DNA of 46,969 nucleotides from a virus. Lineage: Duplodnaviria; Heunggongvirae; Uroviricota; Caudoviricetes. Each line of letters opens with the position of its first letter. Position 1 is the stretch's first letter. The stretch lies in the IMG/VR virus record IMGVR_UViG_3300045988_152627. The stretch is one strand, 5' to 3'. This document shows positions 120-44,469 of this stretch, piece after piece. Made by a program: the position numbers and the translations under genes. Below the pieces are notes generated by a model. The model saw nothing but the letters and a program-made list of their open reading frames with translations. It was not told the DNA's origin and made no database searches.

Positions 120-1476
120 ATTCGATAACGGCGGCAACGGTCGATTTCGCAAGAATATCCCGCCCGACTTTTGTCAGAGTTGCCAGGCTGGCGACATCAT
201 TCCCCGTAAAATACGGAAACCTGTCTGCCGCAGTAGCAAGCCCGGCCAGCGCCGTCAGGGTGGCATCTTTCGGTTGCTTACCCGCAAGCGCGTTAGTCAT
301 GGTGGTCGCAAAATTCGGGTCGTTGCCCAACGCCGCAGCCAGCTCGTTCAGCGTATTCAGTGCGTCAGGCGACGAGTCCACGAGGGCAGCGATCGCAGCC
401 ATAACGAAAGCCGTGCTTGCGATCTGAGTATTGTTAGTACCTTTTGGCGCAGTTGGTGTTGTTGGTGTTCCGGTCAGCGCCGGACTGTTCAGGGGCGCTT
501 TCTTGTTCGTTTCATCCATTACCACCTTTACAGCTTTCGATGTCGCGGCCAGTGTTTCAGACGTGCTGTTGGTGGCACTACTGAGCTGAGTTATTCCCCT
601 TACAGTCAGTGAAGCTACAGGCACATTTGTTATCTGCTCCCACGAATGCGTGTGATTGGACGGAGCCTTTCCGGCCGCAAGATCATACGCTGCCTTAACA
701 GCCTTTGGTGTTGCTGCTAGCGTTTCAGACGTGCTGTTGGTGGCACTACTGAGCTGAACAATCCCTTTTCGCGCTGTAGTAGCGTCCTGTGCGGTGTATT
801 TGCCATTAGCCAGGTCATATGCTGCCTTAACAGCCTTAGGCGTCGCAGCAAGCGTTTCAGACGTGCTATTGGTGGCGCTGCTAAGTTGAACAAAGCCTTT
901 TGAGGTTAAAGTTGCATCGGGATGATTACGTGATTGCTCATGTTTCACAATGGCTTGCTTAAGCCGCTTTGCTGAAACAGCAAGGGAATCATCTGTACCT
1001 GCATCAATTTCTTGTTCATTGGCAAATCTTGCTACCCCAACAACAGTTTCGGTTGCGGGAGGATTAATAAACTCAATATCACCAAATGTAATATTTTTAG
1101 TATCAAGAGTCTTGATTGCTATGTCACTTGATATTAAAGCAATAGTAGATGATGCTTTATTTATTATTGCTTGTTCTTGCGAGTATACAGCAAACAACGT
1201 TCCCTTATTTGTATACAATCCTATTGTATGGACAACATACTCATCTTTACTATCATCCTTCGCCGTTACATGAATTGTATCAGGGGAAACAACTTTGCCA
1301 CCTATTGTGGTAAGTCGTTTTATTTCGTCTGTTATATTTGTTTGTGAGGTTGACGTGACATAATATCTACTACCTAAACCAACAGAAACAATCTCAACTT
1401 TATTTGTTCCTGTTTTGTTGGCATTAACCAACTCCTGACGCCCGGCGTCAGTCATCGTAAATAATAATTTACTCAC
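1..1476 (-). CDS. Tail fibre protein, N-terminal constant part; 3' end runs off the window start (partial)
   Basis: Open minus-strand frame from GTG 1476 (RBS AAGGAA) or ATG 1455 to the window edge; three QLSSATNSTSETLAATPKAVK repeats, TPTTPTAPKGTNNTQIASTAFV and KQPKDATLTALAGL motifs typical of P2 H / Stf-type fibres. Confidence 0.85.
   Translation of the reverse strand, partial: MSKLLFTMTDAGRQELVNANKTGTNKVEIVSVGLGSRYYVTSTSQTNITDEIKRLTTIGGKVVSPDTIHVTAKDDSKDEYVVHTIGLYTNKGTLFAVYSQEQAIINKASSTIALISSDIAIKTLDTKNITFGDIEFINPPATETVVGVARFANEQEIDAGTDDSLAVSAKRLKQAIVKHEQSRNHPDATLTSKGFVQLSSATNSTSETLAATPKAVKAAYDLANGKYTAQDATTARKGIVQLSSATNSTSETLAATPKAVKAAYDLAAGKAPSNHTHSWEQITNVPVASLTVRGITQLSSATNSTSETLAATSKAVKVVMDETNKKAPLNSPALTGTPTTPTAPKGTNNTQIASTAFVMAAIAALVDSSPDALNTLNELAAALGNDPNFATTMTNALAGKQPKDATLTALAGLATAADRFPYFTGNDVASLATLTKVGRDILAKSTVAAVIEYLGLQETVNRAGNAVQKNGDTLSGGLTFENDSILAWIRNT
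103..128. other. gix/cix-like invertase crossover site, left copy
   Basis: TTCCTGCAAACC-GA-GGTATTCGATAA: two inverted 12-bp half-sites around a 2-bp core, resembling Gin/Cin/Hin sites; the homology boundary with the right copy falls just past the core. Confidence 0.6.
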
Positions 1477-5607: not shown

Positions 5608-5815
5608 TGTTGCGTCTCCACGGAGGCAAATTGTTTACTGATATTGGCATAACCGGAGCATCAGGAACTTTAAGAATAATTCCCGCAGAAAAAAGCACCG
5701 TAAAGCGGTGCTCAGTATTAGCATCAATAAGAAGATAAGACAGGTACTCATTACCATACAACTTTAACGCGATACTATCCCATGAGTCCCCTTGAACCGT
5801 TCTATAATCATCCAA
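5597..5815 (-). CDS. Tail protein X-like (LysM-like)
   Basis: 72 aa with a LysM-like pattern (YRTVQGDSWDSIALKLYG); sits between tape measure and gpD-like. Confidence 0.55.
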   Translation of the reverse strand: MDDYRTVQGDSWDSIALKLYGNEYLSYLLIDANTEHRFTVLFSAGIILKVPDAPVMPISVNNLPPWRRNSVT

Positions 5816-8600
5816 AACTTAATCTCCGTTGTTGGAACATATGAGCACTCAATTTCTTCTCAAAATCAGAATATCCCGCATCTAATGCTCTTTTAGCTGC
5901 CGCCTCAGTTTCCTTTGGTGAACCAGCCGGAAGATTGATTACAGGTGAATAGGTTATTCCACCAGTCACAGCGTTAACGTTCTGGCGAGTTCCAGAAGTC
6001 CCGGCGGCAGATATCCCGTGAGGTGATAAATTTGATTGCCCGAACTTGGTTGCTATTGCATTCTGTAAGCTGTTATTCCTGCTAACACCTGATGCCAGAG
6101 TAGTCATTATTGCCCCCCCTGACTTTGTTAGCTGTGTGAATGGACCTTTTTTCGCGTCAGAGAACGGTAAATACTCACGTACAGAAGAAAAAACGCCTTT
6201 CACTTCATTAATTAAAGCATTTGCTTTTGATTTTATCCCAGTGATTAACGTCTCAATTATTTTTGCACCTGACTCACTCCAGTTTATTCCAGATAAATAA
6301 GCCGTTACAGATTGGAATGCTCTTATAAAGAGTCCAACTGGTGAAAAACGCATAAAAACAGACACCAGTGTATCTATGATTTTCTTTCCTGTTTCACTCC
6401 AGTTAATGCCAGAAAGGTAATTTGTTGTAAGTTTAAATGCTTTAATTAAGAACGGAAGCGGAGACATCCATTTAAAAGCACTAATTAATGTACTGTAAAT
6501 TCTTACTCCTGCCGAACTCCAGTTTATGTTGGAAAGATAATCCCATGCTTTACCAAACATAGATATAATCCATCCATTGAGATCAAAGTTTAAGATAAAG
6601 TTTTTTATAGCTTCAAACGATTTAACTGTATATTCCTTAACAGAAGGCCAAACTCTGACAGCATAATCTCTGATCTTATCCCAGTTCTGATAGAGCAATA
6701 TTCCTGCGGCAACCAGCGCAGATATAGCCATCTGAATCCACCCGAAGGGTGTTAGCTTTGTCGCTACAGATAAAGCCAGCATAGCTACCCTACACGCTAT
6801 AACCACACTTTTCATGGTTAGAAACGCACCTGCCGCCATCACAATCTGAGACACAAAATTGGGGTTGTTAGCTACAAATTCACTAATTTTTGTAATCAGC
6901 GGAACCAAAACACTAAGCGCGGCATTCAAAGCAGGTTGCAAGGCCTGACCAAAACTTAATGATGCATTGCTAGCCTGAATACGTAATTGTTTCAATCGCT
7001 CCGCATTGTCTTTCGTTATGTTGGTAAAATCGCGGTCAATAACAGCACTTCCAGCACCAAGAGATGTTGCTTTGATTCTCTGGTATTCCTTCCAGTTTTG
7101 AATCATCGGACGAACAAAGTTCTGAACCTGCATATCGCCAAATAGCTCACCAAGTAACTTCTGATCTCCGTTCTTAGTCATTTTCATGACAGAATGCATT
7201 GCAGCTTCGAATGGATTCTTCCCTTTTTTCTGCGCTGTTGTGACAATTTTATATAAATCTACACCGAAATTTTTCTTTGCTTTTTTTAGTGTTTCAGGGG
7301 AAAGTATTTTCGCCAAAAAGTTGTTCATGTTATTAGCAGCCTCATCCGAAGTTGCAGCACCTTTGCGAGCTATCTGCAAAGCTGCCCCCATCGTCGCGGC
7401 GGCTTCTTTACCTCCCATTTTTAATGCCTGGAACTGGGCACCAAGCACAGGAAGATTTTTGGCCATATCTTTAAATTCAAAGTTTCCCTCTTTCCCTGCC
7501 TGAACCAGAATCCCCATTGCAGACTTCATTTGAGATGGATCAATCTTCAATGAGTCACTTAATGTAAATGATGCTTTCGAGACATCGAGGATATCAGAGC
7601 CAGTAGCTGTAGCTGTTCGCCCAATAGTTAGTAGATTCGCCTGAGCCTCTTTATAATCCTGCCCAGCAGCGACAAGAAAACCCTGAGCGGCCTGAATATC
7701 AGATGCAAACTGGTTGGTGGCCGTTCCGGTAACAAGCATCGCCTGCCCCATCGCCTGAACTTCTTCCGGCTTCATATCTGCCGTAAGACCAATCATTTTG
7801 TTTTCACGATTGAAATTTGCTGCATTGTTAGCAGCAGCAAATGCACCAGCCGCTACAGCACCAGTTTGTAATCCTGACCTTACAAGTTGACTCTTTGCCT
7901 CACCAAGATGCTCTCGCTTCAATTCACGCTGCCTTTCCAACGCGCGGTTTAACTCCTCCTGAGCACGTTTTACTGCAAGAACATTTTTCCGTGCTTCAGC
8001 CAACGCATTTTTATAGCTGTTAATTTTATCAATACGTTGTTTTTCTAATGCCCGGTTAAGTTCCTCCTGCTGTTTTTTCACTTGCTGAACATTTGCTCTG
8101 GCTAAAGCCAAAGCCGTTCTGTAGCGGTTAACCTGCTCAACGCTACGGGCCTGAGCCTCACGATTACGATCAATGCTTGCTTTAAGCTCTTTCTCTCTTG
8201 AGGCTAAAGCTCTGGCAGATGTATCAGCTCCCTGATACGCAGACTTTAAAGCGGCCAGTTCTTCACGCTGAGAACGTAGTGATGCTCGTAAATTTGATGA
8301 ATGTGTTTTTGCCTTCTCAAAGTCACGAAGCATCGCTCTGGTTGGATTGGCCGTGTTTTTTATTTGCTTCTGTAACTCTTCAACGCGAGCAGCAGCTTTA
8401 TGATATTCGAGGGCAGTCTGTCCAACCTTTACTTTTACAGATTGTAGCTTTTGAATTTCCCCATGTTCTTTCGTTAATCCAGCAAGCTCTGCATTTAATT
8501 TAGCAACAGCCTGATTAGCTGTAGTAAAACTTTTGGGGAGAGAGGCGGCAACTTTGCCGCCAATTTCAAAAGCCAGCTTAAAGTTCTTATTGCTGGCCAT
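5808..8600 (-). CDS. Tail tape measure protein
   Basis: 930 aa; N-terminal coiled-coil repeats, central hydrophobic segment; follows the frameshifted chaperone pair. Confidence 0.85.
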   Translation of the reverse strand: MASNKNFKLAFEIGGKVAASLPKSFTTANQAVAKLNAELAGLTKEHGEIQKLQSVKVKVGQTALEYHKAAARVEELQKQIKNTANPTRAMLRDFEKAKTHSSNLRASLRSQREELAALKSAYQGADTSARALASREKELKASIDRNREAQARSVEQVNRYRTALALARANVQQVKKQQEELNRALEKQRIDKINSYKNALAEARKNVLAVKRAQEELNRALERQRELKREHLGEAKSQLVRSGLQTGAVAAGAFAAANNAANFNRENKMIGLTADMKPEEVQAMGQAMLVTGTATNQFASDIQAAQGFLVAAGQDYKEAQANLLTIGRTATATGSDILDVSKASFTLSDSLKIDPSQMKSAMGILVQAGKEGNFEFKDMAKNLPVLGAQFQALKMGGKEAAATMGAALQIARKGAATSDEAANNMNNFLAKILSPETLKKAKKNFGVDLYKIVTTAQKKGKNPFEAAMHSVMKMTKNGDQKLLGELFGDMQVQNFVRPMIQNWKEYQRIKATSLGAGSAVIDRDFTNITKDNAERLKQLRIQASNASLSFGQALQPALNAALSVLVPLITKISEFVANNPNFVSQIVMAAGAFLTMKSVVIACRVAMLALSVATKLTPFGWIQMAISALVAAGILLYQNWDKIRDYAVRVWPSVKEYTVKSFEAIKNFILNFDLNGWIISMFGKAWDYLSNINWSSAGVRIYSTLISAFKWMSPLPFLIKAFKLTTNYLSGINWSETGKKIIDTLVSVFMRFSPVGLFIRAFQSVTAYLSGINWSESGAKIIETLITGIKSKANALINEVKGVFSSVREYLPFSDAKKGPFTQLTKSGGAIMTTLASGVSRNNSLQNAIATKFGQSNLSPHGISAAGTSGTRQNVNAVTGGITYSPVINLPAGSPKETEAAAKRALDAGYSDFEKKLSAHMFQQRRLSFG

Positions 8601-25081: not shown

Positions 25082-25200
25082 CGGGTTATCTCCGGTTTAA
25101 CCAGGGCGGGTATCGCTCGGTTTCGGGTATAACATTAGGAAATTTTTTCCCACCTGTAAAGTACTTTTTATATAATTATATAATTATATAATTCTATGAC
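25082..25200 (-). promoter_or_regulatory. Promoter-leader cassette copy 1 (TTTACA-N17-TAATGT, about 50-nt leader, RBS GGAGAT)
   Basis: Minus-strand -35 at 25155..25160 and -10 at 25132..25137; near-identical to 32154..32275 and 42784..42900; (TATATAAT)x3 upstream of the -35. Confidence 0.6.
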
Positions 25201-26159: not shown

Positions 26160-26329
26160 CATATTTGATCTGTTTGTCTGGTGTGGCGCCGCGCACGAAA
26201 ATCCCAGCCAATAAATTCAGGATTTTTGGGCGCGGCGGCATATCAGACAAACATGGTTGATGCGTGCGCCCATGAGAAAAGCGCATAGAATGTTGTAACT
26301 ATATATTTATATAATTATAGAAATATATA

Positions 26330-30730: not shown

Positions 30731-31029
30731 GCCACAGCCCCTCTCAACGGCTTAACTTTGGCTAATAAGGTGTTAAACAACATGGAGTTAGGATTCATGC
30801 CAAATGGCAATTCCGGTTTAGCGGAGTAGTACAGGCAACCATTTATTTTCCTGGTTGTTATCTGTCCTTCGGCAACCATGCTTCTCAGTCTGCAACGCAT
30901 AGAGTTCTGCGACACACCAATGTGCTCCGCGATTACGTCCACTTTTGAACATGGGTGATCGGTCAGGAAATTAATCACATCTTGGGGGTTAATAATTTTG
31001 CGTTTCATTGTCGAGGCGTCCTTATACAT
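30727..31029 (-). CDS. Hypothetical DNA-binding protein (winged-helix-like)
   Basis: 100 aa; central segment IAEHIGVSQNSMRCRLRSMVAEGQI resembles a winged HTH. Confidence 0.4.
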   Translation of the reverse strand: MYKDASTMKRKIINPQDVINFLTDHPCSKVDVIAEHIGVSQNSMRCRLRSMVAEGQITTRKINGCLYYSAKPELPFGMNPNSMLFNTLLAKVKPLRGAVA

Positions 31030-31085
31030 TTATATAAATATATAATTCTATATACGGCGGGAGACATCCCGCCGTAGGCTTACTG

Positions 31086-32153
31086 TCAGGCTTTCAATAG
31101 CGATTCTTTCAGATATCGGGCATCAGCCAGGGCGTTTGGAGTAATCTTGCGAACCCATGCATTACGGGTTGGACTCCACTTAAAGGCGCGTGATTTAAGC
31201 AGCGAACGAATGTTTGCCTCTGGTTTGCCAGGGAAATAAAACAGGATGCGGTTATCCTCTGGATCTATCTCCATAGAAAAGCCGTCGTATTCTTCGCGCT
31301 GTGCTCCTGTTACAGACTTGACCGATTCAAGCTCCTTAATACGGCTCTGTAGTCGTTTGATTTCGGCGTTATTGTTGCTCAGTGCGTATGAAGGGAATCC
31401 GATGCGCCCACAGAAATCTCCGGCCAGTAACTCTTTGGCTTCGCTTTCTGTAAACCTGAGATCGATTAATGCAGAAAGCTGCTGTAATTGGTCTTTTTTG
31501 TATTTGCGAATGGCCTTATTTGCGGCCTTCATTTTGACGTGTGACTTCATGCAGCCTTGCAGCTTACGAAGCAACTTAAATAGCGCATCAGGATCATCAG
31601 ACGAAATTCCATTACGACCAACACCTGCGGCTTTGCTCTCGTAGTGTGATGCTTTACTTTCGCATTCAACAAACGTTTTTCTGAATAACGCATCAGCTTT
31701 AGACAAACGGCGGCGATGGCCTTTCGCGCTATAATGGTCAACTAAAATCGGCTGGCCTAACGGGATCACATCCAACAGGTCATGCGCTCGCTTATGCGCT
31801 ACCGCACCTTCTTTTCTGGCTTTTTCTGCACGAGCAATATATCGGGCAAGACGCGCGTTCTGGCGTTCCTGATAGGTGTTTACGTAATCATCTCCGCGCT
31901 GCTGCTGTTCAAGCCATGCTTTGCGCAGATCTTCTGTTACGTCCACCAGCTCCGCAGGGATACAACCAGTTTGGGCTTCATAAGAGTAACCATCCTCATA
32001 GATACGCCCATCGTCTTCAACAAAGAAAAAGGTTTCGTGCTCATCGCTTTTGACCATACGACCATTAACATGGCGTAATAGGTAGCCAGTATCAGTGCTT
32101 AACAGGCTGTTAGGGTTGTTGATCCAGTCAGAAATAATTACTTGTTTATTCAT
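31086..32153 (-). CDS. Hypothetical protein (DUF3560-like?)
   Basis: 355 aa; first gene after promoter-leader cassette copy 2; family assignment by recall only. Confidence 0.4.
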   Translation of the reverse strand: MNKQVIISDWINNPNSLLSTDTGYLLRHVNGRMVKSDEHETFFFVEDDGRIYEDGYSYEAQTGCIPAELVDVTEDLRKAWLEQQQRGDDYVNTYQERQNARLARYIARAEKARKEGAVAHKRAHDLLDVIPLGQPILVDHYSAKGHRRRLSKADALFRKTFVECESKASHYESKAAGVGRNGISSDDPDALFKLLRKLQGCMKSHVKMKAANKAIRKYKKDQLQQLSALIDLRFTESEAKELLAGDFCGRIGFPSYALSNNNAEIKRLQSRIKELESVKSVTGAQREEYDGFSMEIDPEDNRILFYFPGKPEANIRSLLKSRAFKWSPTRNAWVRKITPNALADARYLKESLLKA

Positions 32154-32275
32154 CAGATTTCTCCGGTTTAACCAGGGCGGGTATCGCTCGGTTTCGGTTA
32201 TAACCTTAGGAAATTTTTTCCCACCTGTAAAGCACTTTTTATATAAATCTATAATTATATATTTATAGATTTTCG
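32154..32275 (-). promoter_or_regulatory. Promoter-leader cassette copy 2, directly downstream of the Q-like gene
   Basis: Same sequence as copies 1 and 3 with a few substitutions (TAAGGT at the -10 position); TATAAATCTATAATTATATA motif upstream. Confidence 0.55.
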
Positions 32276-35971: not shown

Positions 35972-36106
35972 CTGAAAGCGGGCTAACGCCCGCTTATATG
36001 ATTATAGATTTATATAATTATATAAAACGCTTTTCATCCGCCAAAAAGTTGGTTATGCTTACCTCGTTCTATAAATATAGATTTATAGAATTATATAACC
36101 AAACAC

Positions 36107-36775
36107 ATGGAGTCTCGACAAATGACTATCTCTGTAGGTATTTTCAACGGAAAAGGCGGCGTAACCAAATCAACAATTGCCCGTGCTTTAGCAGTTGCTT
36201 ATGCAAAGGCCGGCTGGAATGTATGCCTGATCGATATGGATGTGCTTAACGGAACGGTAACGCGTTGGGTACAACGCAGAATGGCCAACAATATCGAACC
36301 TGCAATCGCGGCGCAGCCGTGCGGCACGCCATCACAAGTCCAGAAAATCATCGAATCAGAAGTATACGACCTGGTTATCGTTGATGGCGGTGCCTACGCA
36401 TCTGAATCAGTACCGAAGCTCTCTGAATTTCTGGATATGGTTATTTTGCCAACCAGATTCTCTACCGATGACCTAGAAACCACCGTTAACACAGCTCACG
36501 GCATCGTTAAAAAGGGTGTACCAATCAAGAAAATTTGCATGGTGTTTTCCGGCGCGGCTGAAAACGAAGCTGACTATATTGAAGCCCAAGAGTACCTGGC
36601 TAATACGCCATACTTTGTTGTCGATAAGTACATTCCCCACAAGCCAGCTCTGAGCAAAGCTCAGGATAAGGGCTTAAGCCTCATTGAGTGCTCATACGTT
36701 GCGCCACGCAAAAAGGCAGACGACGTTATTCAGGGGATTATCAACCAGCTTGAGGCTCTGACTACTGCCGCGTAA
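36107..36775 (+). CDS. parA: ParA-family partition ATPase (small, type Ib)
   Basis: 222 aa with deviant Walker A NGKGGVTKST and later VIVDGGA motif. Confidence 0.85.
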   Translation: MESRQMTISVGIFNGKGGVTKSTIARALAVAYAKAGWNVCLIDMDVLNGTVTRWVQRRMANNIEPAIAAQPCGTPSQVQKIIESEVYDLVIVDGGAYASESVPKLSEFLDMVILPTRFSTDDLETTVNTAHGIVKKGVPIKKICMVFSGAAENEADYIEAQEYLANTPYFVVDKYIPHKPALSKAQDKGLSLIECSYVAPRKKADDVIQGIINQLEALTTAA

Positions 36776-36818
36776 TATATAATTATAGTTTTATAGATTT
36801 ATATAAGATGGGATACAC

Positions 36819-37067
36819 ATGGCCGCACCATCAAAACCACCAAAGAAGAACAGCAAAGGCGTACCGCCATCGATCGAACAACCGCAGGTTTTCGACCCGA
36901 CTGAAACGCCAACCAGAACCAAATCAGGTGGGGCACAAATGGCGTTTAACGTCGACCCTGAATTTAAACGCGAGTACAAAACGTTCGCCAGCTCAATGGA
37001 TATGTCATTGAAAGAAGTGCTGACAAAATCTTTTGAGTTACTCAAGGCTCAATACAACCAGAAGTAA
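36819..37067 (+). CDS. ParG-like ribbon-helix-helix centromere-binding protein
   Basis: 82 aa; Pro/Lys-rich tail then RHH-like MAFNVDPEFKREYKTFASSMDMSLKEVL; directly downstream of parA. Confidence 0.6.
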   Translation: MAAPSKPPKKNSKGVPPSIEQPQVFDPTETPTRTKSGGAQMAFNVDPEFKREYKTFASSMDMSLKEVLTKSFELLKAQYNQK

Positions 37068-37279: not shown

Positions 37280-37295
37280 ATTCAACCATAAAAAA

Positions 37296-37311
37296 GGCCC
37301 CCGAAGGGGCC
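37296..37311. terminator. Bidirectional terminator hairpin GGCCCCCGAAGGGGCC
   Basis: Perfect GC-rich hairpin flanked by an A-run upstream and T-rich sequence on the opposite strand. Confidence 0.55.
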
Positions 37312-37877
37312 TAATCGCTACTTGCTGCTAATGTTTATCGTCACATTCAGAGCGTTATCAGTAATCTTCCAACCCTCCCCATGTGGCGTAAACAAAGCCC
37401 CAGTAACAACGATAAAAATACACATACAGTATTTTTTCATTGTATGGCCCTTACAGGCCGTTTCACGGCATCCCCACCGACGAAAACAACGCGAGAGCAA
37501 GCACGGCTGCTTGTGCTTGCATGTACGGCAACAGGAAATCCTCCCCTAAAGTCGGTGCCCGGGTGCGAATCGGCGGGAAGGTCCACAGGTATTTTACGAT
37601 TATTTTAAGATTAGTAATAGGAAATAAATTAAACGAAAAAACCAGTTTATTTTCACAAAATCAGTAACCTACCCACAATCTGTGAGTTTGCAGACACAAC
37701 AAGAACCACAATTTTTTGAAGCATAATAGTGGACTATTATTACCTTTTGGGTAAAATCAACTTGCTGCTTGTGCTTGCGTGGTTGTTTATACAACAACGT
37801 AATGCTGAAAGGACCGCGAATCCGATCAGCACGAAAGAACCGTCCTCAATAGGGCGGTTTTTTTGTTTCTTCACTCA

Positions 37878-38569: not shown

Positions 38570-38864
38570 TGTCTCTGTTAAAATCCCGCCGTATTGACAT
38601 GAATGCGCCATTGGTGGACACTTTCCGAGCCGTAGCAAAATCTACGGTCGGGATTAGCCTCCTGAATAACACGATGGCGCATACCGCGTTAGCGGTTTTT
38701 TTATGCGTAGAGCACTGTTACGCCCAAATTATGGTGGGTCGTACAGGGGCGGAGAAATCCGCGCCGGTTCGTCATTGTGTCCGGTAAGGCTAACCCTGTA
38801 CGGCTCACCACCATTTGATTAGCCTCGAATGGCGGTGATAGTTCCATATATTGGAGATATCACA

Positions 38865-39056
38865 ATGACAAACTTACCCCATGACTATTACGTCAACCTC
38901 GTAAAGATCCTTCTCAAGAAAGCCTCATACGCCGATAAATTCCGCCTGGCTGAAATAATCGAGCGCGAAGCTATGCGCATCGCCAGCAACGATAACGCTG
39001 TTTCTGACGCAAAAATCTCCCTCGTAACCAAAGTAGTTATGGGAGGTGCAAAATGA
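38865..39056 (+). CDS. Hypothetical small protein, coupled to the antirepressor
   Basis: 63 aa from ATG 38865 (RBS GGAGAT); stop overlaps the antirepressor start. Confidence 0.35.
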   Translation: MTNLPHDYYVNLVKILLKKASYADKFRLAEIIEREAMRIASNDNAVSDAKISLVTKVVMGGAK

Positions 39057-40195
39057 AAACGCTTCCGACCGTTAACACCCTACAGCCTATCCTGCATAAC
39101 CAGATCCCCGTTATCACCACGGAGCTGCTTGCCAAACTATATGGCTGTAGCGTCGAATGTCTTCACAGAAATCACCACCGTAATAAGTCCCGGTTTACAG
39201 AAGGAAAACATTTCATAGTTGTAAAAGGTACAGATCTCCAAAGTTTGAAAATCTCTTTAAGAGATTTTCAAACCATCGCGAATAACGTTAGAAAGCTCAT
39301 CCTCTGGACCGAACGCGGGGCTGCACGTCACGCTAAAATGCTCGAAACCGATCAGGCATGGGATGTATTCGAACGGCTGGAAGACTGCTACTTCAACCAG
39401 AACGCGCAAACGGCCGCGACCGTAACCGTCTCACCAAACAATGCTCGTGAGGTTGTCGATACGCTCAACGCTAAACCAATGTATTACGTTAAGGTGTGCA
39501 ACAACGAGCCACTCACAACCTCAGCCGATGTTGCCCAAGCATTCAGCACCACAAACAATTCCATCGTTATGGCCATCGATGCGTTACGTATTCCTCGCAC
39601 AGCTGCGGCGCGTCACTTCTTTAAAGAACAACGACCGCTGGAAGGAAGCGACCGCGAAATAACAATCTATCGCATGACAAAAGACGGATTTACCTTGCTC
39701 ATGGAAAGTATCGACGGTCCAGGCGTGAAGGATATCAAGCTGGCCTACATTGAAGCCTTTAACGCTATCAGCAGCGTGTTAAAGGCAGAATACGAGCGAA
39801 TGCTATACAACCGACTGTATCAGGAAACAAAGATTATCCGAACGGCAACAGAACATCATCGGCTATTAACGGAACCAAACTACCGCAAGACACTAATCAA
39901 AGAATTTGACAAGGCGACGGAGAAAACTAAAGCGGCACTAAATCTACCAACAATGACTAAAGATGATGTGATATCAGCCTTACTTCTTGATCTGCTCAGA
40001 AACGCCAGAGCACTTATCAGTTTTGACGAAAACCTGAATCCTCAGCTCAAGCTACTACCACCGACAGGCAAAGTAGTCGACCAAGCAGATCACAACAGCA
40101 TACTCAGCGTACTGGATGCAAACCTGCCAGCCAGGACACTACAGGAGCTGATAAAAATATCTGCGGATAAACTGGCCGCAGGTGCAAAACCATAA
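39053..40195 (+). CDS. Phage antirepressor (KilA-N/ORF6N-like N-terminus plus Rha-like domain)
   Basis: 380 aa; N-terminal ITTELLAKLYGCS...KHFIVVKGTDL and central TSADVAQAFSTTNNSIVMAIDAL resembling the Rha motif. Confidence 0.65.
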   Translation: MKTLPTVNTLQPILHNQIPVITTELLAKLYGCSVECLHRNHHRNKSRFTEGKHFIVVKGTDLQSLKISLRDFQTIANNVRKLILWTERGAARHAKMLETDQAWDVFERLEDCYFNQNAQTAATVTVSPNNAREVVDTLNAKPMYYVKVCNNEPLTTSADVAQAFSTTNNSIVMAIDALRIPRTAAARHFFKEQRPLEGSDREITIYRMTKDGFTLLMESIDGPGVKDIKLAYIEAFNAISSVLKAEYERMLYNRLYQETKIIRTATEHHRLLTEPNYRKTLIKEFDKATEKTKAALNLPTMTKDDVISALLLDLLRNARALISFDENLNPQLKLLPPTGKVVDQADHNSILSVLDANLPARTLQELIKISADKLAAGAKP

Positions 40196-41773: not shown

Positions 41774-41874
41774 TACATCCTCTACCTTTCCCTAGATATT
41801 CAATAAATTAGACATAGCCACTCACGACAAAATAAGATGTATTAACAATCCAATCTTTAGGCTTTAGGTAAAAA

Positions 41875-42300
41875 ATGAGTTCATCTGCTTTTGTCACCGT
41901 GGTCACTGGTGTAAGTGTTTTTGTTCTAGGCCAACTCATCGTCAAAGGAGCTATTGAGCCTTACATTTCATTCAGGGAACAACTAGGGAAAATATCCAAT
42001 CTGTTATTATGTAACCAAGCAAAAATAGTGAATCCTGGCTCGAACTTAAAGCCAGAAATCATTCATGATCTAAAAGATTCCGCAGCACAGTTAATGGCAA
42101 AATATTCCACTTTACCTTTCTATATCAAAAAGTTACATATCGGCTTTCGTCTTGTTCCATCAGCCACCGAGATTCTTGGGGCAGCTCGAAATTTGAACTA
42201 TATAGCGTCAATACATGAAGGTAAGACTGGGGAGAATCCATCTAAGCATCTCGAAGAGATTGGCCATATGCTCAAAATACCAACTACCTATTCAAGCTAA
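41875..42300 (+). CDS. Hypothetical protein with N-terminal TM helix
   Basis: 141 aa; N-terminal hydrophobic helix SAFVTVVTGVSVFVLGQLIV; low-GC gene. Confidence 0.4.
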   Translation: MSSSAFVTVVTGVSVFVLGQLIVKGAIEPYISFREQLGKISNLLLCNQAKIVNPGSNLKPEIIHDLKDSAAQLMAKYSTLPFYIKKLHIGFRLVPSATEILGAARNLNYIASIHEGKTGENPSKHLEEIGHMLKIPTTYSS

Positions 42301-42366
42301 CCCAATGTAAGTTATCGGCTTGCCCCACAATAAGTTATCTATCTTCAAACGCCCCTATATTAACAC

Positions 42367-42393
42367 TCGCAAAGTGTCAAAATGACACTTTGC
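42367..42393. terminator. Bidirectional terminator, 11-bp perfect stem
   Basis: GCAAAGTGTCA-AAA-TGACACTTTGC between convergent genes 41875..42300 and 42403..42783. Confidence 0.55.
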
Positions 42394-42402
42394 GCATTGT
42401 GT

Positions 42403-42783
42403 TTACTTAACGAGGAATAAAAATGGTTTATCGTTCGGCGGTGTACTCGGGGCTGGCTCGCTTTTGCTCATACGATCAGTGTACCAGGCCAGCTCCTTGT
42501 CAAAGTAAGCCTGATTAAAATAGGCCATGAATGTGGTTTCAAATCCATAACGACCGCTAATACGCAGCATCTGATTGCCGTTCTCTGTTTCCAGATATAC
42601 CTGGGCACGTTCCTGATTCTCCTTCAGCCAAGTTAAAGCCTCGTCGCACGAGGACACACGATACTCATCATCGTAGCCGTCATCGATGCGGCTTGAAGGA
42701 GAACGGCAAATCACGCCAACAGAACCAGCCAGGATAGTTTGAATTTTAAGGAAAGCGTTTTTGCGGATTTTAATCATGCTCAT
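42403..42783 (-). CDS. Hypothetical protein
   Basis: 126 aa; start codon sits exactly at the end of promoter-leader cassette copy 3. Confidence 0.4.
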   Translation of the reverse strand: MSMIKIRKNAFLKIQTILAGSVGVICRSPSSRIDDGYDDEYRVSSCDEALTWLKENQERAQVYLETENGNQMLRISGRYGFETTFMAYFNQAYFDKELAWYTDRMSKSEPAPSTPPNDKPFLFLVK

Positions 42784-42900
42784 CGGGTTATCTCCGGTTT
42801 AACCAGGGCGGGTATCGCTCGGTTTCGGGTATAACATTAGGAAATTTTTTCCCACCTGTAAAGCACTTTTATATAAATCTATAATTATATAATTCTATGA
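42784..42900 (-). promoter_or_regulatory. Promoter-leader cassette copy 3 (TTTACA-N17-TAATGT)
   Basis: Minus-strand -35 at 42857..42862 and -10 at 42834..42839; about 88 bp identical to copy 1 from the ATG up to the -35. Confidence 0.6.
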
Positions 42901-42945
42901 GCACAAAAAAGCCCCTTTGCAACAGGGGCTTATCATTCGTTCTGA

Positions 42946-43836: not shown

Positions 43837-44127
43837 CTATTTTTGTGACTTTACTCCTGGCATATGGACTTCCCAGCGACGAATCCCCATAGCTGCGCAA
43901 AAATCAGCCACATAATTCAATCCCGCCCATTCGCGGATACCACCACGGGCTTTTTCAATGAAAACGGCAATCCCTTTTTTATTGAGAGCAAAAAGCCGCC
44001 AGCTTTTTGTCACTTCGTCCTGGGTAGCCACAACACAAGTGAAAGCGCCCATGCGATACAGGTCCAAGAACTCTTTGCGTGTTTTACGTACAAGTTCCAT
44101 AACAAACCTCATATTTGCATGTTTCAA
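43837..44127 (-). CDS. Hypothetical protein
   Basis: 96 aa ORF overlapping the upstream gene by 4 bp. Confidence 0.35.
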   Translation of the reverse strand: MKHANMRFVMELVRKTRKEFLDLYRMGAFTCVVATQDEVTKSWRLFALNKKGIAVFIEKARGGIREWAGLNYVADFCAAMGIRRWEVHMPGVKSQK

Positions 44128-44423
44128 ACATCTGTTTTGTCATCAATGAAGATTAACCCTAACCCAGCGAAGTAACACAGCAGCGCCCAGGCTGCATACG
44201 GAATGCTGGATCTGGATGTGGACTCCTTTAACATCTGCCAATTGCGAACATTGCGACTATCTTTTAGGCCAAGTTTTTTGGCCAACTGCGAGCCGCTCAT
44301 TCCGGTCAGGCCAATGACTGCCCGAACTTCTCCACATGTAGGAGATTCCCATTCATCCGCTTTTTTTAAACAAGCCGGATTCAACATTTTTAAAACAGTA
44401 TCTTTATCCATAACCATCTCCAT
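44124..44423 (-). CDS. Hypothetical HTH-like protein with C-terminal hydrophobic helix
   Basis: 99 aa; HTH-like MSGSQLAKKLGLKDSRNVRNW and C-terminal AAWALLCYFAGLGLIFI. Confidence 0.35.
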   Translation of the reverse strand: MEMVMDKDTVLKMLNPACLKKADEWESPTCGEVRAVIGLTGMSGSQLAKKLGLKDSRNVRNWQMLKESTSRSSIPYAAWALLCYFAGLGLIFIDDKTDV

Positions 44424-44469
44424 TTATTATATCTACGATGGTAGGAAATCTTTTCCTATGTGGCAATAG

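What the first reader, a model, noticed from the sequence alone, without database searches (positions are those of the whole stretch)
42403..42900. Third promoter-cassette copy driving a single 126-aa gene closed by an 11-bp-stem terminator
A compact insulated unit (promoter copy 3, one gene, terminator at 42367..42393) sits between the HTH/membrane pair and the toxin-antitoxin genes. The protein has no motif I recognise.
Basis: seen in the sequence. Interest (0 to 1): 0.45.

Follow-up and report, generated by a model that had tools for sequence, protein, structure and literature searches.

The report
Repressor-wired single-gene unit, unknown conserved protein
A small, well-conserved gene of unknown function in an E. 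coli phage-plasmid has its own copy of a repeated, regulator-controlled promoter, and its context suggests, without proving, that it helps the element establish itself or evade host defences after entering a cell.

Summary
A 126-aa ORF (42403..42783, minus strand) lies behind the third copy of a ~108-nt cassette (42791-42898) and ahead of a 12-bp hairpin (42368-42394).

The window is a ~48-kb E. coli phage-plasmid. The gene occurs in all 59 related PLSDB records found and is under purifying selection. A 65%-identical Salmonella relative keeps the three cassette copies at the same three places.

The cassette has four parts:
- an array of 8-bp repeats that also flank parA/parG;
- a TTTACA-N17-TAATGT promoter with a GGAAA-N3-TTTCC palindrome in its spacer;
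- a 5'UTR hairpin kept by compensatory changes;
- a ribosome-binding site.

The same palindrome sits in the promoter of a 99-aa HTH gene (44124..44423). That protein is homologous to the anti-CRISPR-associated HTH of AcrIF24/Aca3.

Marine phage-plasmids (33-39% identity) rebuild the same unit with their own repeats and palindromes.

The protein has no Pfam, NCBIfam or PADLOC match and no fold match. Relatives are fused to LPD25 or to a neighbouring 76-aa gene.

Best reading (about 0.45): an early or establishment gene under Aca-like and ParG-like repression, probably anti-defence. The biochemical function is unknown.

The parts
42909..42931 (-). Intrinsic terminator of the upstream higBA operon (8-bp stem, T-run). 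It shields the cassette from read-through.
   Evidence: terminator scan, minus strand; sequence.
42870..42905 (.). Array of 8-bp repeats (TATAWAWW) just upstream of the -35. The same repeats flank parA/parG. Inferred binding sites of the ParG-like ribbon-helix-helix protein.
   Evidence: 22 matches against 0.01 expected; sites at 25166-93, 26297-329, 31023-47, 32240-69, 36000-27, 36081-97, 36789-805, 42870-94. Marine relatives use their own octamer at both the par locus and the cassettes.
42834..42862 (-). Sigma-70-type promoter: -35 TTTACA (42862-42857), 17-nt spacer, -10 TAATGT (42839-42834).
   Evidence: Read. The hexamers keep their position in the Salmonella and marine cassettes (TTGCTA/TTGCAA ... 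TATTTA/TATAGT/TATGTA). Not called by the consensus scan.
42840..42852 (.). Palindrome GGAAA-N3-TTTCC inside the promoter spacer. Inferred operator of the Aca-type HTH protein.
   Evidence: 4 matches against 0.08 expected, namely the three cassettes plus the promoter of the 99-aa HTH gene. Each lineage has its own palindrome at the same position.
42801..42824 (-). 5'UTR hairpin (outer stem AACC/GGTT, inner stem GCG/CGC).
   Evidence: 8 consensus pairs across 9 cassettes from 4-5 lineages, 4 of them kept through changes on both sides. Single-sequence folding is not significant.
42792..42795 (-). Shine-Dalgarno GGAG, 8 nt before the ATG.
   Evidence: conserved in all cassette copies.
42403..42783 (-). 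126-aa gene. It encodes a ~105-aa alpha/beta domain (signature IRKNA near the N-terminus), a disordered linker, and a short hydrophobic C-terminal peptide (PPNDKPFLFLVK).
42368..42394 (.). 12-bp perfect hairpin/palindrome (CGCAAAGTGTCA-N3-TGACACTTTGCG). A terminator by the scan rules on the + strand only. Its right arm contains TTGACA, and the inverted repeat is retained (weaker, 10 bp with one G-T) in Salmonella.
44124..44423 (-). 99-aa HTH gene ('s99'), homologous to the AcrIF24 C-terminal HTH and to Aca3. Candidate repressor acting on the spacer palindrome.
   Evidence: E 1.5e-5, residues 20-83; marine homologues.
44444..44456 (.). Fourth GGAAA-N3-TTTCC palindrome, in the spacer of the s99 promoter (TTGCCA-N17-TACCAT).
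36819..37067 (+). 82-aa ParG-like protein just downstream of ParA (36107..36775). Candidate binder of the octamer repeats.
   Evidence: ParA hits Pfam; the 82-aa protein has no Pfam hit, so ribbon-helix-helix is my reading of the sequence. Homologues sit next to ParA in marine relatives.
25089..25196 (-). Cassette copy 1, upstream of a 73-aa gene and the genes that follow it, downstream of the MT-A70 methyltransferase.
32160..32267 (-). Cassette copy 2, upstream of the DUF3560 gene (31086..32153).

Best explanation
The unit is a self-contained regulatory module of a phage-plasmid. It has an upstream terminator, an operator-bearing promoter, a structured 5'UTR, one gene and a closing hairpin.

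Shown by sequence and comparison:
- The gene is real, core to the family and under purifying selection.
- Its promoter cassette is one of three near-identical copies that evolve in concert.
- The cassette shares an 8-bp repeat array with the parA/parG locus.
- The cassette shares a spacer palindrome with the promoter of a 99-aa HTH gene that is homologous to anti-CRISPR-associated (Aca) regulators.
- Very distant relatives keep the same layout with different repeat and palindrome sequences.

Inferred:
- The HTH protein binds the palindrome and the ParG-like protein binds the octamers, and both repress.
- The gene would therefore fire in a burst when the DNA enters a cell that has neither repressor, or on derepression, and be throttled in the established plasmid state.
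- The product is a compact alpha/beta domain that carries a flexible tail ending in a short hydrophobic docking peptide. It most likely binds a host protein, and my leading guess is neutralisation of a host defence.
- Its molecular target is unknown.
For: - Real and core: 59 PLSDB records hold the region and 59 hold the major capsid gene. It also occurs in three Yersinia phages. The sequence is on at least 1000 contigs. Against Salmonella, dN is 0.25, dS is saturated and there are no indels.
- Concerted three-copy cassette at the same three positions in Salmonella.
- Octamers shared with par.
- Palindrome shared with the s99 promoter.
- s99 matches AcrIF24 HTH and Aca3, and the marine homologues do too.
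- Marine phage-plasmids L013, L015, L004 and L006 each have cassettes with their own octamer and palindrome. The octamer recurs at parA in both L013 and L015. The spacer palindrome recurs at the parA promoter in L015, with a related one in L013. Each cassette precedes one small gene or a small-gene + s99-like pair.
- In L006 the family gene directly precedes the s99-like gene, which is the acr-aca order.
- In L012, a different palindrome goes with a different HTH.
- The 5'UTR hairpin is kept by compensatory changes.
- Published framework: Aca proteins repress bursts of anti-defence expression, often control several neighbouring operons, and some bind 5'UTR RNA. One Aca family is ribbon-helix-helix (PMC13551039).
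- Conflict-type context of relatives: fusion to LPD25, a domain of polyvalent proteins of conjugative elements. A position between parAB and traM/traI that looks like a plasmid leading region. An ArdC-N neighbour. Lar in the same gene array.
- Divergence: 65% identity to Salmonella, like the CI-like repressor (65%) and HTH90 (70%). By contrast, ParA is 95%, HigBA 90%, RepA 85% and most of the major structural proteins (capsid, portal, terminase, sheath, baseplate) 79-90%.
Against: - No defence or anti-defence homology: PADLOC, Pfam, NCBIfam and PDB sequence searches are empty, and PHROGs gives only an unknown-function family.
- No expression or binding data, so repression by s99 and ParG is inference only.
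- In the window s99 is 1.3 kb away, with higBA in between.
- Two of the three cassettes precede long runs of same-strand genes that, going by the annotation of the ATCC 25922 relative, include lysis and packaging or structural genes. The cassette may therefore simply be a lytic-cycle promoter rather than an anti-defence one.
- The parA promoter in the window shares the octamers but not the palindrome.
- HTH similarity to Aca proteins does not by itself define function.
Confidence: 0.45

Rival explanations
1. It is a regulator of the lysis-lysogeny or immunity circuit, for example an antirepressor or a partner of the 90-aa HTH encoded just downstream in most relatives. Expression from the same promoter as the lytic operons would lock in the lytic programme.
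For: The HTH90 gene follows 55-71 nt after the stop in ATCC 25922 and Salmonella. The hairpin between them is a perfect palindrome whose right arm holds TTGACA, so it could be an operator. The protein diverges at the rate of the immunity genes. The anatomy resembles stand-alone antirepressor units such as tum of phage 186 (my own knowledge).
Against: HTH90 has no close counterpart beside the gene in the marine relatives; its only hit there (L004_8696, on the opposite strand) is about 4.5 kb away. Family members occur in a conjugative plasmid and in a Photobacterium chromosomal array, where no lysogeny switch is evident. The element already carries a P1-type c4 antisense RNA plus an ORF6N-Rha antirepressor module. 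The palindrome occurs only once in the window.
Confidence: 0.2
2. It is a plasmid maintenance accessory for replication or partition. For example, it could recruit a host replisome component through its C-terminal peptide, or act with ParA.
For: The gene always lies in the repA-to-parA maintenance region, 0.7-2.3 kb downstream of an IncFII-type repA. It shares the octamer repeats with the par promoter. The C-terminal x-L-[FY]-L-V resembles beta-clamp-binding peptides (QLxLF type; my own knowledge, not tested). Weak fold hits to sliding-clamp domains are not significant.
Against: Insertions (higBA, small genes) separate it freely from repA. The marine C-terminal motif (NVVSLCAYRQRLAG) does not fit a clamp motif. 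The reported copy-number mutants of this family map to CopA/repA, apart from one regulator SNP. The AF2 model places the N-terminus in the sheet, not as a free ParA-activating peptide.
Confidence: 0.15
3. It is a lytic-cycle host-takeover protein, such as an inhibitor of a host process, made together with the replication, lysis and packaging operons.
For: The identical cassette precedes the DUF3560 gene and the post-methylase genes, which are followed on the same strand by genes annotated as lysis and packaging functions in the ATCC 25922 relative. This arrangement is conserved in Salmonella.
Against: Homologues are present in a conjugative plasmid and a chromosomal gene array that lack lytic functions. 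In the marine relatives the cassettes seen so far drive only small genes in the maintenance region.
Confidence: 0.15

Closest known systems
acr-aca type operons (Aca-repressed anti-defence operons), including AcrIF24/Aca3-type HTH regulators and multi-operon Aca control
   Same: A strong promoter with an inverted repeat between the -35 and -10. An HTH homologous to AcrIF24-CTD/Aca3 is encoded nearby, and adjacent in marine relatives. The same operator is repeated before several neighbouring small-gene units. There is a structured 5'UTR motif just before the RBS. The cargo is small and has no annotation (PMC13551039).
   Different: The cargo has no similarity to any known Acr. In the window the regulator is 1.3 kb away in its own operon. 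Two of the operator-bearing promoters head long runs of same-strand genes rather than small anti-defence operons. A second layer of octamer repeats shared with the partition locus has no counterpart that I know of in described acr-aca loci.
Global regulons of partition or ribbon-helix-helix proteins on plasmids: KorB/OB sites of RK2, omega of pSM19035, ParG/OF of TP228, and the dispersed centromeres of phage-plasmid N15 (my own knowledge)
   Same: Short repeats that mark the par promoter or centromere recur at other promoters around the replicon. A small ParG-like protein is encoded next to a small Walker-type ParA. The regulated genes include poorly understood 'kil/kle'-type small genes.
   Different: Binding is not demonstrated. 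The repeat is an 8-bp AT-rich unit. The element is a phage-plasmid, and the repeats sit in front of phage-type gene runs as well.
Solo domains of polyvalent proteins (LPD families) and leading-region establishment genes of conjugative plasmids
   Same: Distant family members are fused to LPD25. One of them sits between parAB and traM/traI, and it points towards the traM side where I would expect oriT. Neighbours include ArdC-N and Lar.
   Different: The window protein has no LPD25 domain. The element has no conjugation genes. The family's N-domain is not among the Pfam LPD models.

Membership tests
acr-aca type (Aca-regulated anti-defence) operon | An Aca-family DNA-binding regulator is encoded in or beside the operon. 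| tested here: met
   s99 (44124..44423) matches the AcrIF24 HTH at E 1.5e-5 and Aca3 at E 0.017. In marine relatives it is adjacent to, or in the same cassette unit as, the family gene. In the window it is 1.3 kb upstream in its own operon.
acr-aca type (Aca-regulated anti-defence) operon | An inverted-repeat operator lies within the promoter and also in the regulator's own promoter (autoregulation). | tested here: met
   GGAAA-N3-TTTCC lies in the spacer of all three cassettes and of the s99 promoter: 4 matches against 0.08 expected. This is sequence evidence only; binding was not testable.
acr-aca type (Aca-regulated anti-defence) operon | The cargo protein inhibits CRISPR-Cas or another defence system. 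| not testable with these tools
   This needs infection or lysogenisation assays.
acr-aca type (Aca-regulated anti-defence) operon | The cargo is homologous to a known Acr or anti-defence protein. | tested here: not met
Intrinsic (Rho-independent) terminator closing the gene | A GC-containing hairpin directly followed by a U-tract on the transcribed strand. | tested here: inconclusive
   The hairpin is strong (12 bp, z -4.5). The scan finds the T-run only on the + strand. The minus-strand tail is AGUGUUAAUAU. Marine orthologues do have canonical terminators.
Sigma-70 promoter | -35 and -10 hexamers 16-18 nt apart. | tested here: inconclusive
   TTTACA-N17-TAATGT gives 5/6 and 3/6 matches with the key T-A...T positions kept. 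The scan does not call it. Hexamers closer to consensus sit at the same positions in other lineages.
ParG/omega/KorB-type global regulon | A small centromere-binding protein next to a Walker-type ParA, with short repeats at the par promoter that recur at other promoters. | tested here: met
   ParA has Pfam hits, and an 82-aa protein with a ribbon-helix-helix-like sequence follows it. Octamer arrays lie at par and at 5 other places. In L013 and L015 the octamer differs between lineages but is the same at par and at the cassettes within each. Binding was not testable.
Polyvalent-protein LPD25 domain | A match to PF18840. | tested here: not met
   The window protein has no match. Only distant fused relatives (P0060, P0062, P0066, P0064) match, and only near or below the gathering score.
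Beta-clamp-binding protein | A QL[SD]LF / QLxLxL type peptide that docks on DnaN. | not tested
   The C-terminal x-L-[FY]-L-V is only a resemblance recalled from memory. The marine motif does not fit it. No complex prediction was available.

The most novel reading that the evidence does not exclude
The ~100-aa 'IRKNA' domain would be a new, widespread effector module of phage-plasmids and conjugative elements. It would dock onto a host defence or housekeeping hub through exchangeable C-terminal pieces: a short peptide, a 76-aa domain, or LPD25. Its expression would be gated by three layers at once: an Aca-type HTH operator, partition-protein (ParG-like) repeats, and a 5'UTR hairpin. That would tie anti-defence or establishment bursts directly to the partition system's sensing of whether the plasmid is already established.
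Probability: 0.25. Interest if true: 0.75.

Novelty: new variant of a known kind. Interest (0 to 1): 0.55.

Why it matters
- This phage-plasmid family is common in clinical E. coli and can carry beta-lactamase genes (bioRxiv 10.64898/2026.08.19.745698). That the window belongs to that 'p-p47' family is likely but was not checked by sequence.
- A core, fast-diverging gene of unknown function with a dedicated repressor-wired promoter is a concrete candidate for what lets these elements establish in new hosts.
- The regulatory layout gives a directly testable case of a partition protein and an Aca-type regulator jointly controlling phage and plasmid genes. The palindrome-bearing promoter occurs four times, three of them as full cassettes with partition-type repeats and a conserved 5'UTR hairpin.
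- The same layout is rebuilt with different sequences from E. coli to marine Vibrionaceae.
- The protein family has no Pfam model and no fold relative, so characterising it would annotate about 40 sequence clusters (50% identity).

Tried and rejected
- Homology: Pfam, NCBIfam and PADLOC gave nothing. PHROGs gave only phrog_8090, of unknown function. PDB sequence searches with two profiles gave only chance hits (SNF5 at E 0.59, Bet v 1 at E 0.32).
- DNA mimic (Ocr/ArdA-like): rejected, because the net charge is only -1.5 to -8.
- Known RNA element in the cassette: no Rfam hit there. Single-sequence folding of the UTR is not significant (z -0.6 to -2.0). Support for the hairpin appears only in the cross-lineage alignment.
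- Integron cassette reading of the Photobacterium array: rejected, because the repeats there are promoter-like (TTGTCT-N17-TATTAT), not attC-like.
- A homologue of the marine 76-aa partner domain in the window: none found.
- Hairpin palindrome as a repeated operator: it has only one copy in the window, which is compatible with chance for loose matches.
- Literature: nothing on the protein accession or on the Yersinia phages. The p-p47 preprint does not name this gene and has no supplement held as text.

Full report
**What the window is.**
- The region matches 59 non-mobilizable ~47-50 kb plasmids, 58 Escherichia and one Klebsiella, at 95-99% identity. It also matches three Yersinia myophages.
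- Annotated relatives carry a contractile-tail virion module, an IncFII-type RepA, ParA and HigBA. The window is therefore a phage-plasmid.
- It is very probably the 'p-p47 family' described in bioRxiv 10.64898/2026.08.19.745698, which has about the same size, the same hosts and CopA/RepA control. I did not verify identity by sequence.

**Observation.**
- The 126-aa ORF is at 42403..42783 on the minus strand.
- Upstream is the third copy of a three-copy repeat at 25089-25196, 32160-32267 and 42791-42898.
- Downstream is a perfect 12-bp hairpin at 42368-42394.
- Upstream of the cassette, the higBA operon ends in its own terminator at 42909-42931.
- The T-run after the closing hairpin is on the + strand, where it serves the convergent 141-aa gene. 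On the gene's own strand there is no canonical U-tract.
- Twelve of the 20 listed relatives carry the 141-aa gene. In ATCC 25922 and Salmonella it is absent and a 90-aa HTH gene follows co-directionally, 55-71 nt after the stop. The fully 'insulated' state in the window is therefore partly derived.

**The gene is real and core.**
- The same number of PLSDB records (59) hold the gene and the major capsid gene.
- The exact or near-exact protein is on at least 1000 contigs.
- Salmonella phage-plasmids have a 65%-identical orthologue of identical length. dN is 0.25 and synonymous sites are saturated. Within E. coli, dN/dS is 0.15-0.39.
- Its divergence (65%) matches the immunity and regulatory genes: the CI-like repressor at 65%, HTH90 at 70% and a 124-aa protein at 60%. 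It does not match ParA (95%), HigBA (90%), RepA (85%) or most major structural proteins (79-90%).

**Anatomy of the cassette, read on the minus strand.**
- An array of 8-bp TATAWAWW repeats.
- -35 TTTACA, then a 17-nt spacer holding the palindrome GGAAA-N3-TTTCC, then -10 TAATGT.
- A ~50-nt leader, GGAG, and the ATG.
- The consensus scan does not call this promoter.
- In Salmonella, three copies sit at the same three positions: before the orthologue, before DUF3560, and after the MT-A70 methylase. All three share lineage-specific substitutions, which indicates concerted evolution with a trans-acting factor.

**Two links to regulators.**
- First link. The octamer pattern has 22 matches against 0.01 expected. 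Beyond the cassettes it clusters at 26297-329, at 31023-47, and three times around parA/parG: 36000-27, 36081-97 and 36789-805. The 82-aa protein after ParA has a ribbon-helix-helix-like sequence. That is my reading; it has no Pfam hit.
- Second link. The palindrome occurs four times against 0.08 expected. The fourth copy is in the spacer of TTGCCA-N17-TACCAT, the promoter of a 99-aa HTH gene just after repA.
- That HTH protein aligns over 64 residues to the C-terminal, promoter-binding HTH of AcrIF24 (E 1.5e-5) and to Aca3 (E 0.017).

**Deep conservation of the design.**
- An exhaustive profile search finds 38 representative proteins at E up to 0.001, about 34 of them credible family members.
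- Marine and Vibrio phage-plasmids with 33-39% identical proteins keep the synteny: tail genes, repA, small genes, family gene, then parA and an XRE repressor further on.
- In L013, L015, L004 and L006 the family gene is preceded by a repeated cassette with the same layout but different sequences. The octamers are AGTGAATT in L013 and AAAGAAAT in L015. The palindromes are TAGGCC-N5-GGCCTA or TAGGAC-N5-GTCCTA.
- In L013 and L015 the lineage's own octamer reappears at its parA. The spacer palindrome reappears in the parA promoter of L015, and a related one in L013.
- Each cassette there precedes one small gene or a small-gene + s99-like pair. Canonical or terminator-like hairpins follow the family gene.
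- In L012 a different palindrome goes with a different HTH.
- The leaders share a hairpin. Four of its eight pairs are kept through changes on both sides, for example GGCC/GGCC against AACC/GGTT.

**The protein.**
- It has no Pfam, NCBIfam or PADLOC match. PHROGs places it in phrog_8090, of unknown function.
- With a 29-sequence alignment, AF2 gives pLDDT 85.8, with block means of 92-96 over most of residues 1-100 and a dip to 80 for residues 31-40. The topology is beta-alpha-beta-beta-alpha-beta-beta-beta-alpha, followed by a low-confidence tail.
- I6-R7-K8-N9-A10 are invariant in all 29 sequences.
- The tail ends in a conserved short motif: PPN..P.L[FY]LV in enterobacteria and P.N[VI][VI]SLC.YR..LA[GS] in marine members.
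- Longer relatives carry other C-terminal modules. [quoted passage not shown] Another is a 76-aa domain that is a separate, cassette-driven neighbour gene in the marine phage-plasmids (61% identity, E 3e-28). The window has no copy of that domain.

**Context of relatives.**
- One LPD25-fused member lies between parAB and traM/traI of a conjugative plasmid and is oriented towards traM. Calling this a leading region is my interpretation; oriT itself was not located.
- One member has an ArdC-N neighbour.
- One sits in a Photobacterium array of small genes that includes Lar. Many of the genes in that array have their own copy of a repeated promoter.

**Interpretation.**
- The layout closely parallels Aca-controlled anti-defence operons. 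It has an inverted repeat in a strong promoter, an autoregulated Aca-type HTH, the same operator before several neighbouring units, and a structured leader. All of these features are described in PMC13551039, including a ribbon-helix-helix Aca.
- The layout also parallels global regulons of partition proteins such as KorB and omega (my own knowledge).
- My preferred model: transcription bursts on entry or derepression and is then shut down by s99 and ParG. The product acts on a host protein through its tail, most likely to counter a defence or otherwise aid establishment.

**Shown:** conservation, anatomy, shared motifs, the HTH homology, and the domain fusions.

**Inferred:** who binds what, the timing of expression, and the protein's activity.

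**Main counter-argument.** Two of the three cassettes head long runs of same-strand genes that, by the annotation of the ATCC 25922 relative, include lysis and packaging or structural genes. The gene may therefore simply be a lytic-cycle or regulatory factor. Rival readings (immunity regulator, maintenance accessory, host takeover) together carry about as much weight as the preferred one.

**Verdict.**
- It is a new variant of known regulatory designs, carrying a protein family with no known relatives.
- Interest is moderate (0.55): it is a well-defined, testable candidate rather than a demonstrated new mechanism.

Noticed in passing
window 25166-25193, 26297-26329, 31023-31047, 32240-32269, 36000-36027, 36081-36097, 36789-36805, 42870-42894: Arrays of an 8-bp repeat (TATAWAWW), 22 matches against 0.01 expected. 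They bracket parA/parG and recur at the three cassettes and two other sites. This suggests dispersed binding sites for the ParG-like protein, acting as a global regulon or as multiple centromeres.
   Followed up: partly
window 44124-44456 (-): The 99-aa HTH gene after repA is homologous to the AcrIF24 C-terminal HTH and to Aca3. Its promoter spacer carries the same GGAAA-N3-TTTCC palindrome as the three cassettes. The p-p47 preprint reports one high-copy mutant with a SNP in an unnamed 'potential transcriptional regulator'. Whether that is this gene is unknown.
   Followed up: partly
window 37290-37586 (-), 38629-38702 (+), 38727-38815 (+), 39053-40195 (+): Rfam hits to ryfA, isrK and the P1/P7 C4 antisense RNA. 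They lie just upstream of a 75-aa gene and an ORF6N-Rha protein, which together look like a P1-like immI (c4-icd-ant) module.
   Followed up: no
window ~41780-42357 (gene 41875..42300 +): The 141-aa protein gene (hydrophobic N-terminus) is an insertion between the hairpin and the HTH90 gene. It is present in 12 of the 20 listed PLSDB relatives and absent in ATCC 25922 and Salmonella, where the HTH gene follows the 126-aa gene directly.
   Followed up: partly
window 42368-42394: The 'terminator' is a perfect palindrome (AAAGTGTCA-N3-TGACACTTT core) whose right arm contains TTGACA. An inverted repeat is retained at the same place in Salmonella, where it is AT-richer and has no U-tract. It could double as an operator or promoter element for HTH90.
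   Followed up: partly
window 42801-42824 (-) and the equivalent place in all cassettes: A conserved 5'UTR hairpin with compensatory changes across enterobacterial and marine lineages (4 of 8 pairs). There is no Rfam family here.
   Followed up: partly
L007 549-15690 (Photobacterium kishitanii contig PYNF01000003.1): At least 11 copies of a ~45-nt promoter-like repeat (TTGTCT-N17-TATTAT) are spread through an array of about 30 small same-strand genes, so that many genes have their own copy. The array includes the family homologue and a Lar-like gene. The element type is unknown.
   Followed up: no
L004 4332-4562, L015 5309-5542, L013 8564-8782, L011 8810-9043; proteins P0018, P0021: A 72-77-aa protein family (motif DNASxRAYRGxG...YKSWRG) is a separate cassette-driven gene next to the family gene in the marine elements. 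It is fused to the family's N-domain in P0018 and P0021. It has no Pfam or PDB match.
   Followed up: partly
protein cluster of P0001: The 90%-identity cluster of the 126-aa protein also lists the unrelated 90-aa HTH proteins as members. This is probably a clustering artefact caused by fused or read-through gene calls.
   Followed up: no
window 509-918 and 6259-6543: Three ~110-nt direct repeats at 509-918. Three 45-nt repeats spaced exactly 120 nt apart at 6259-6543, inside the large 930-aa ORF (5808..8600 -). Neither set was examined.
   Followed up: no
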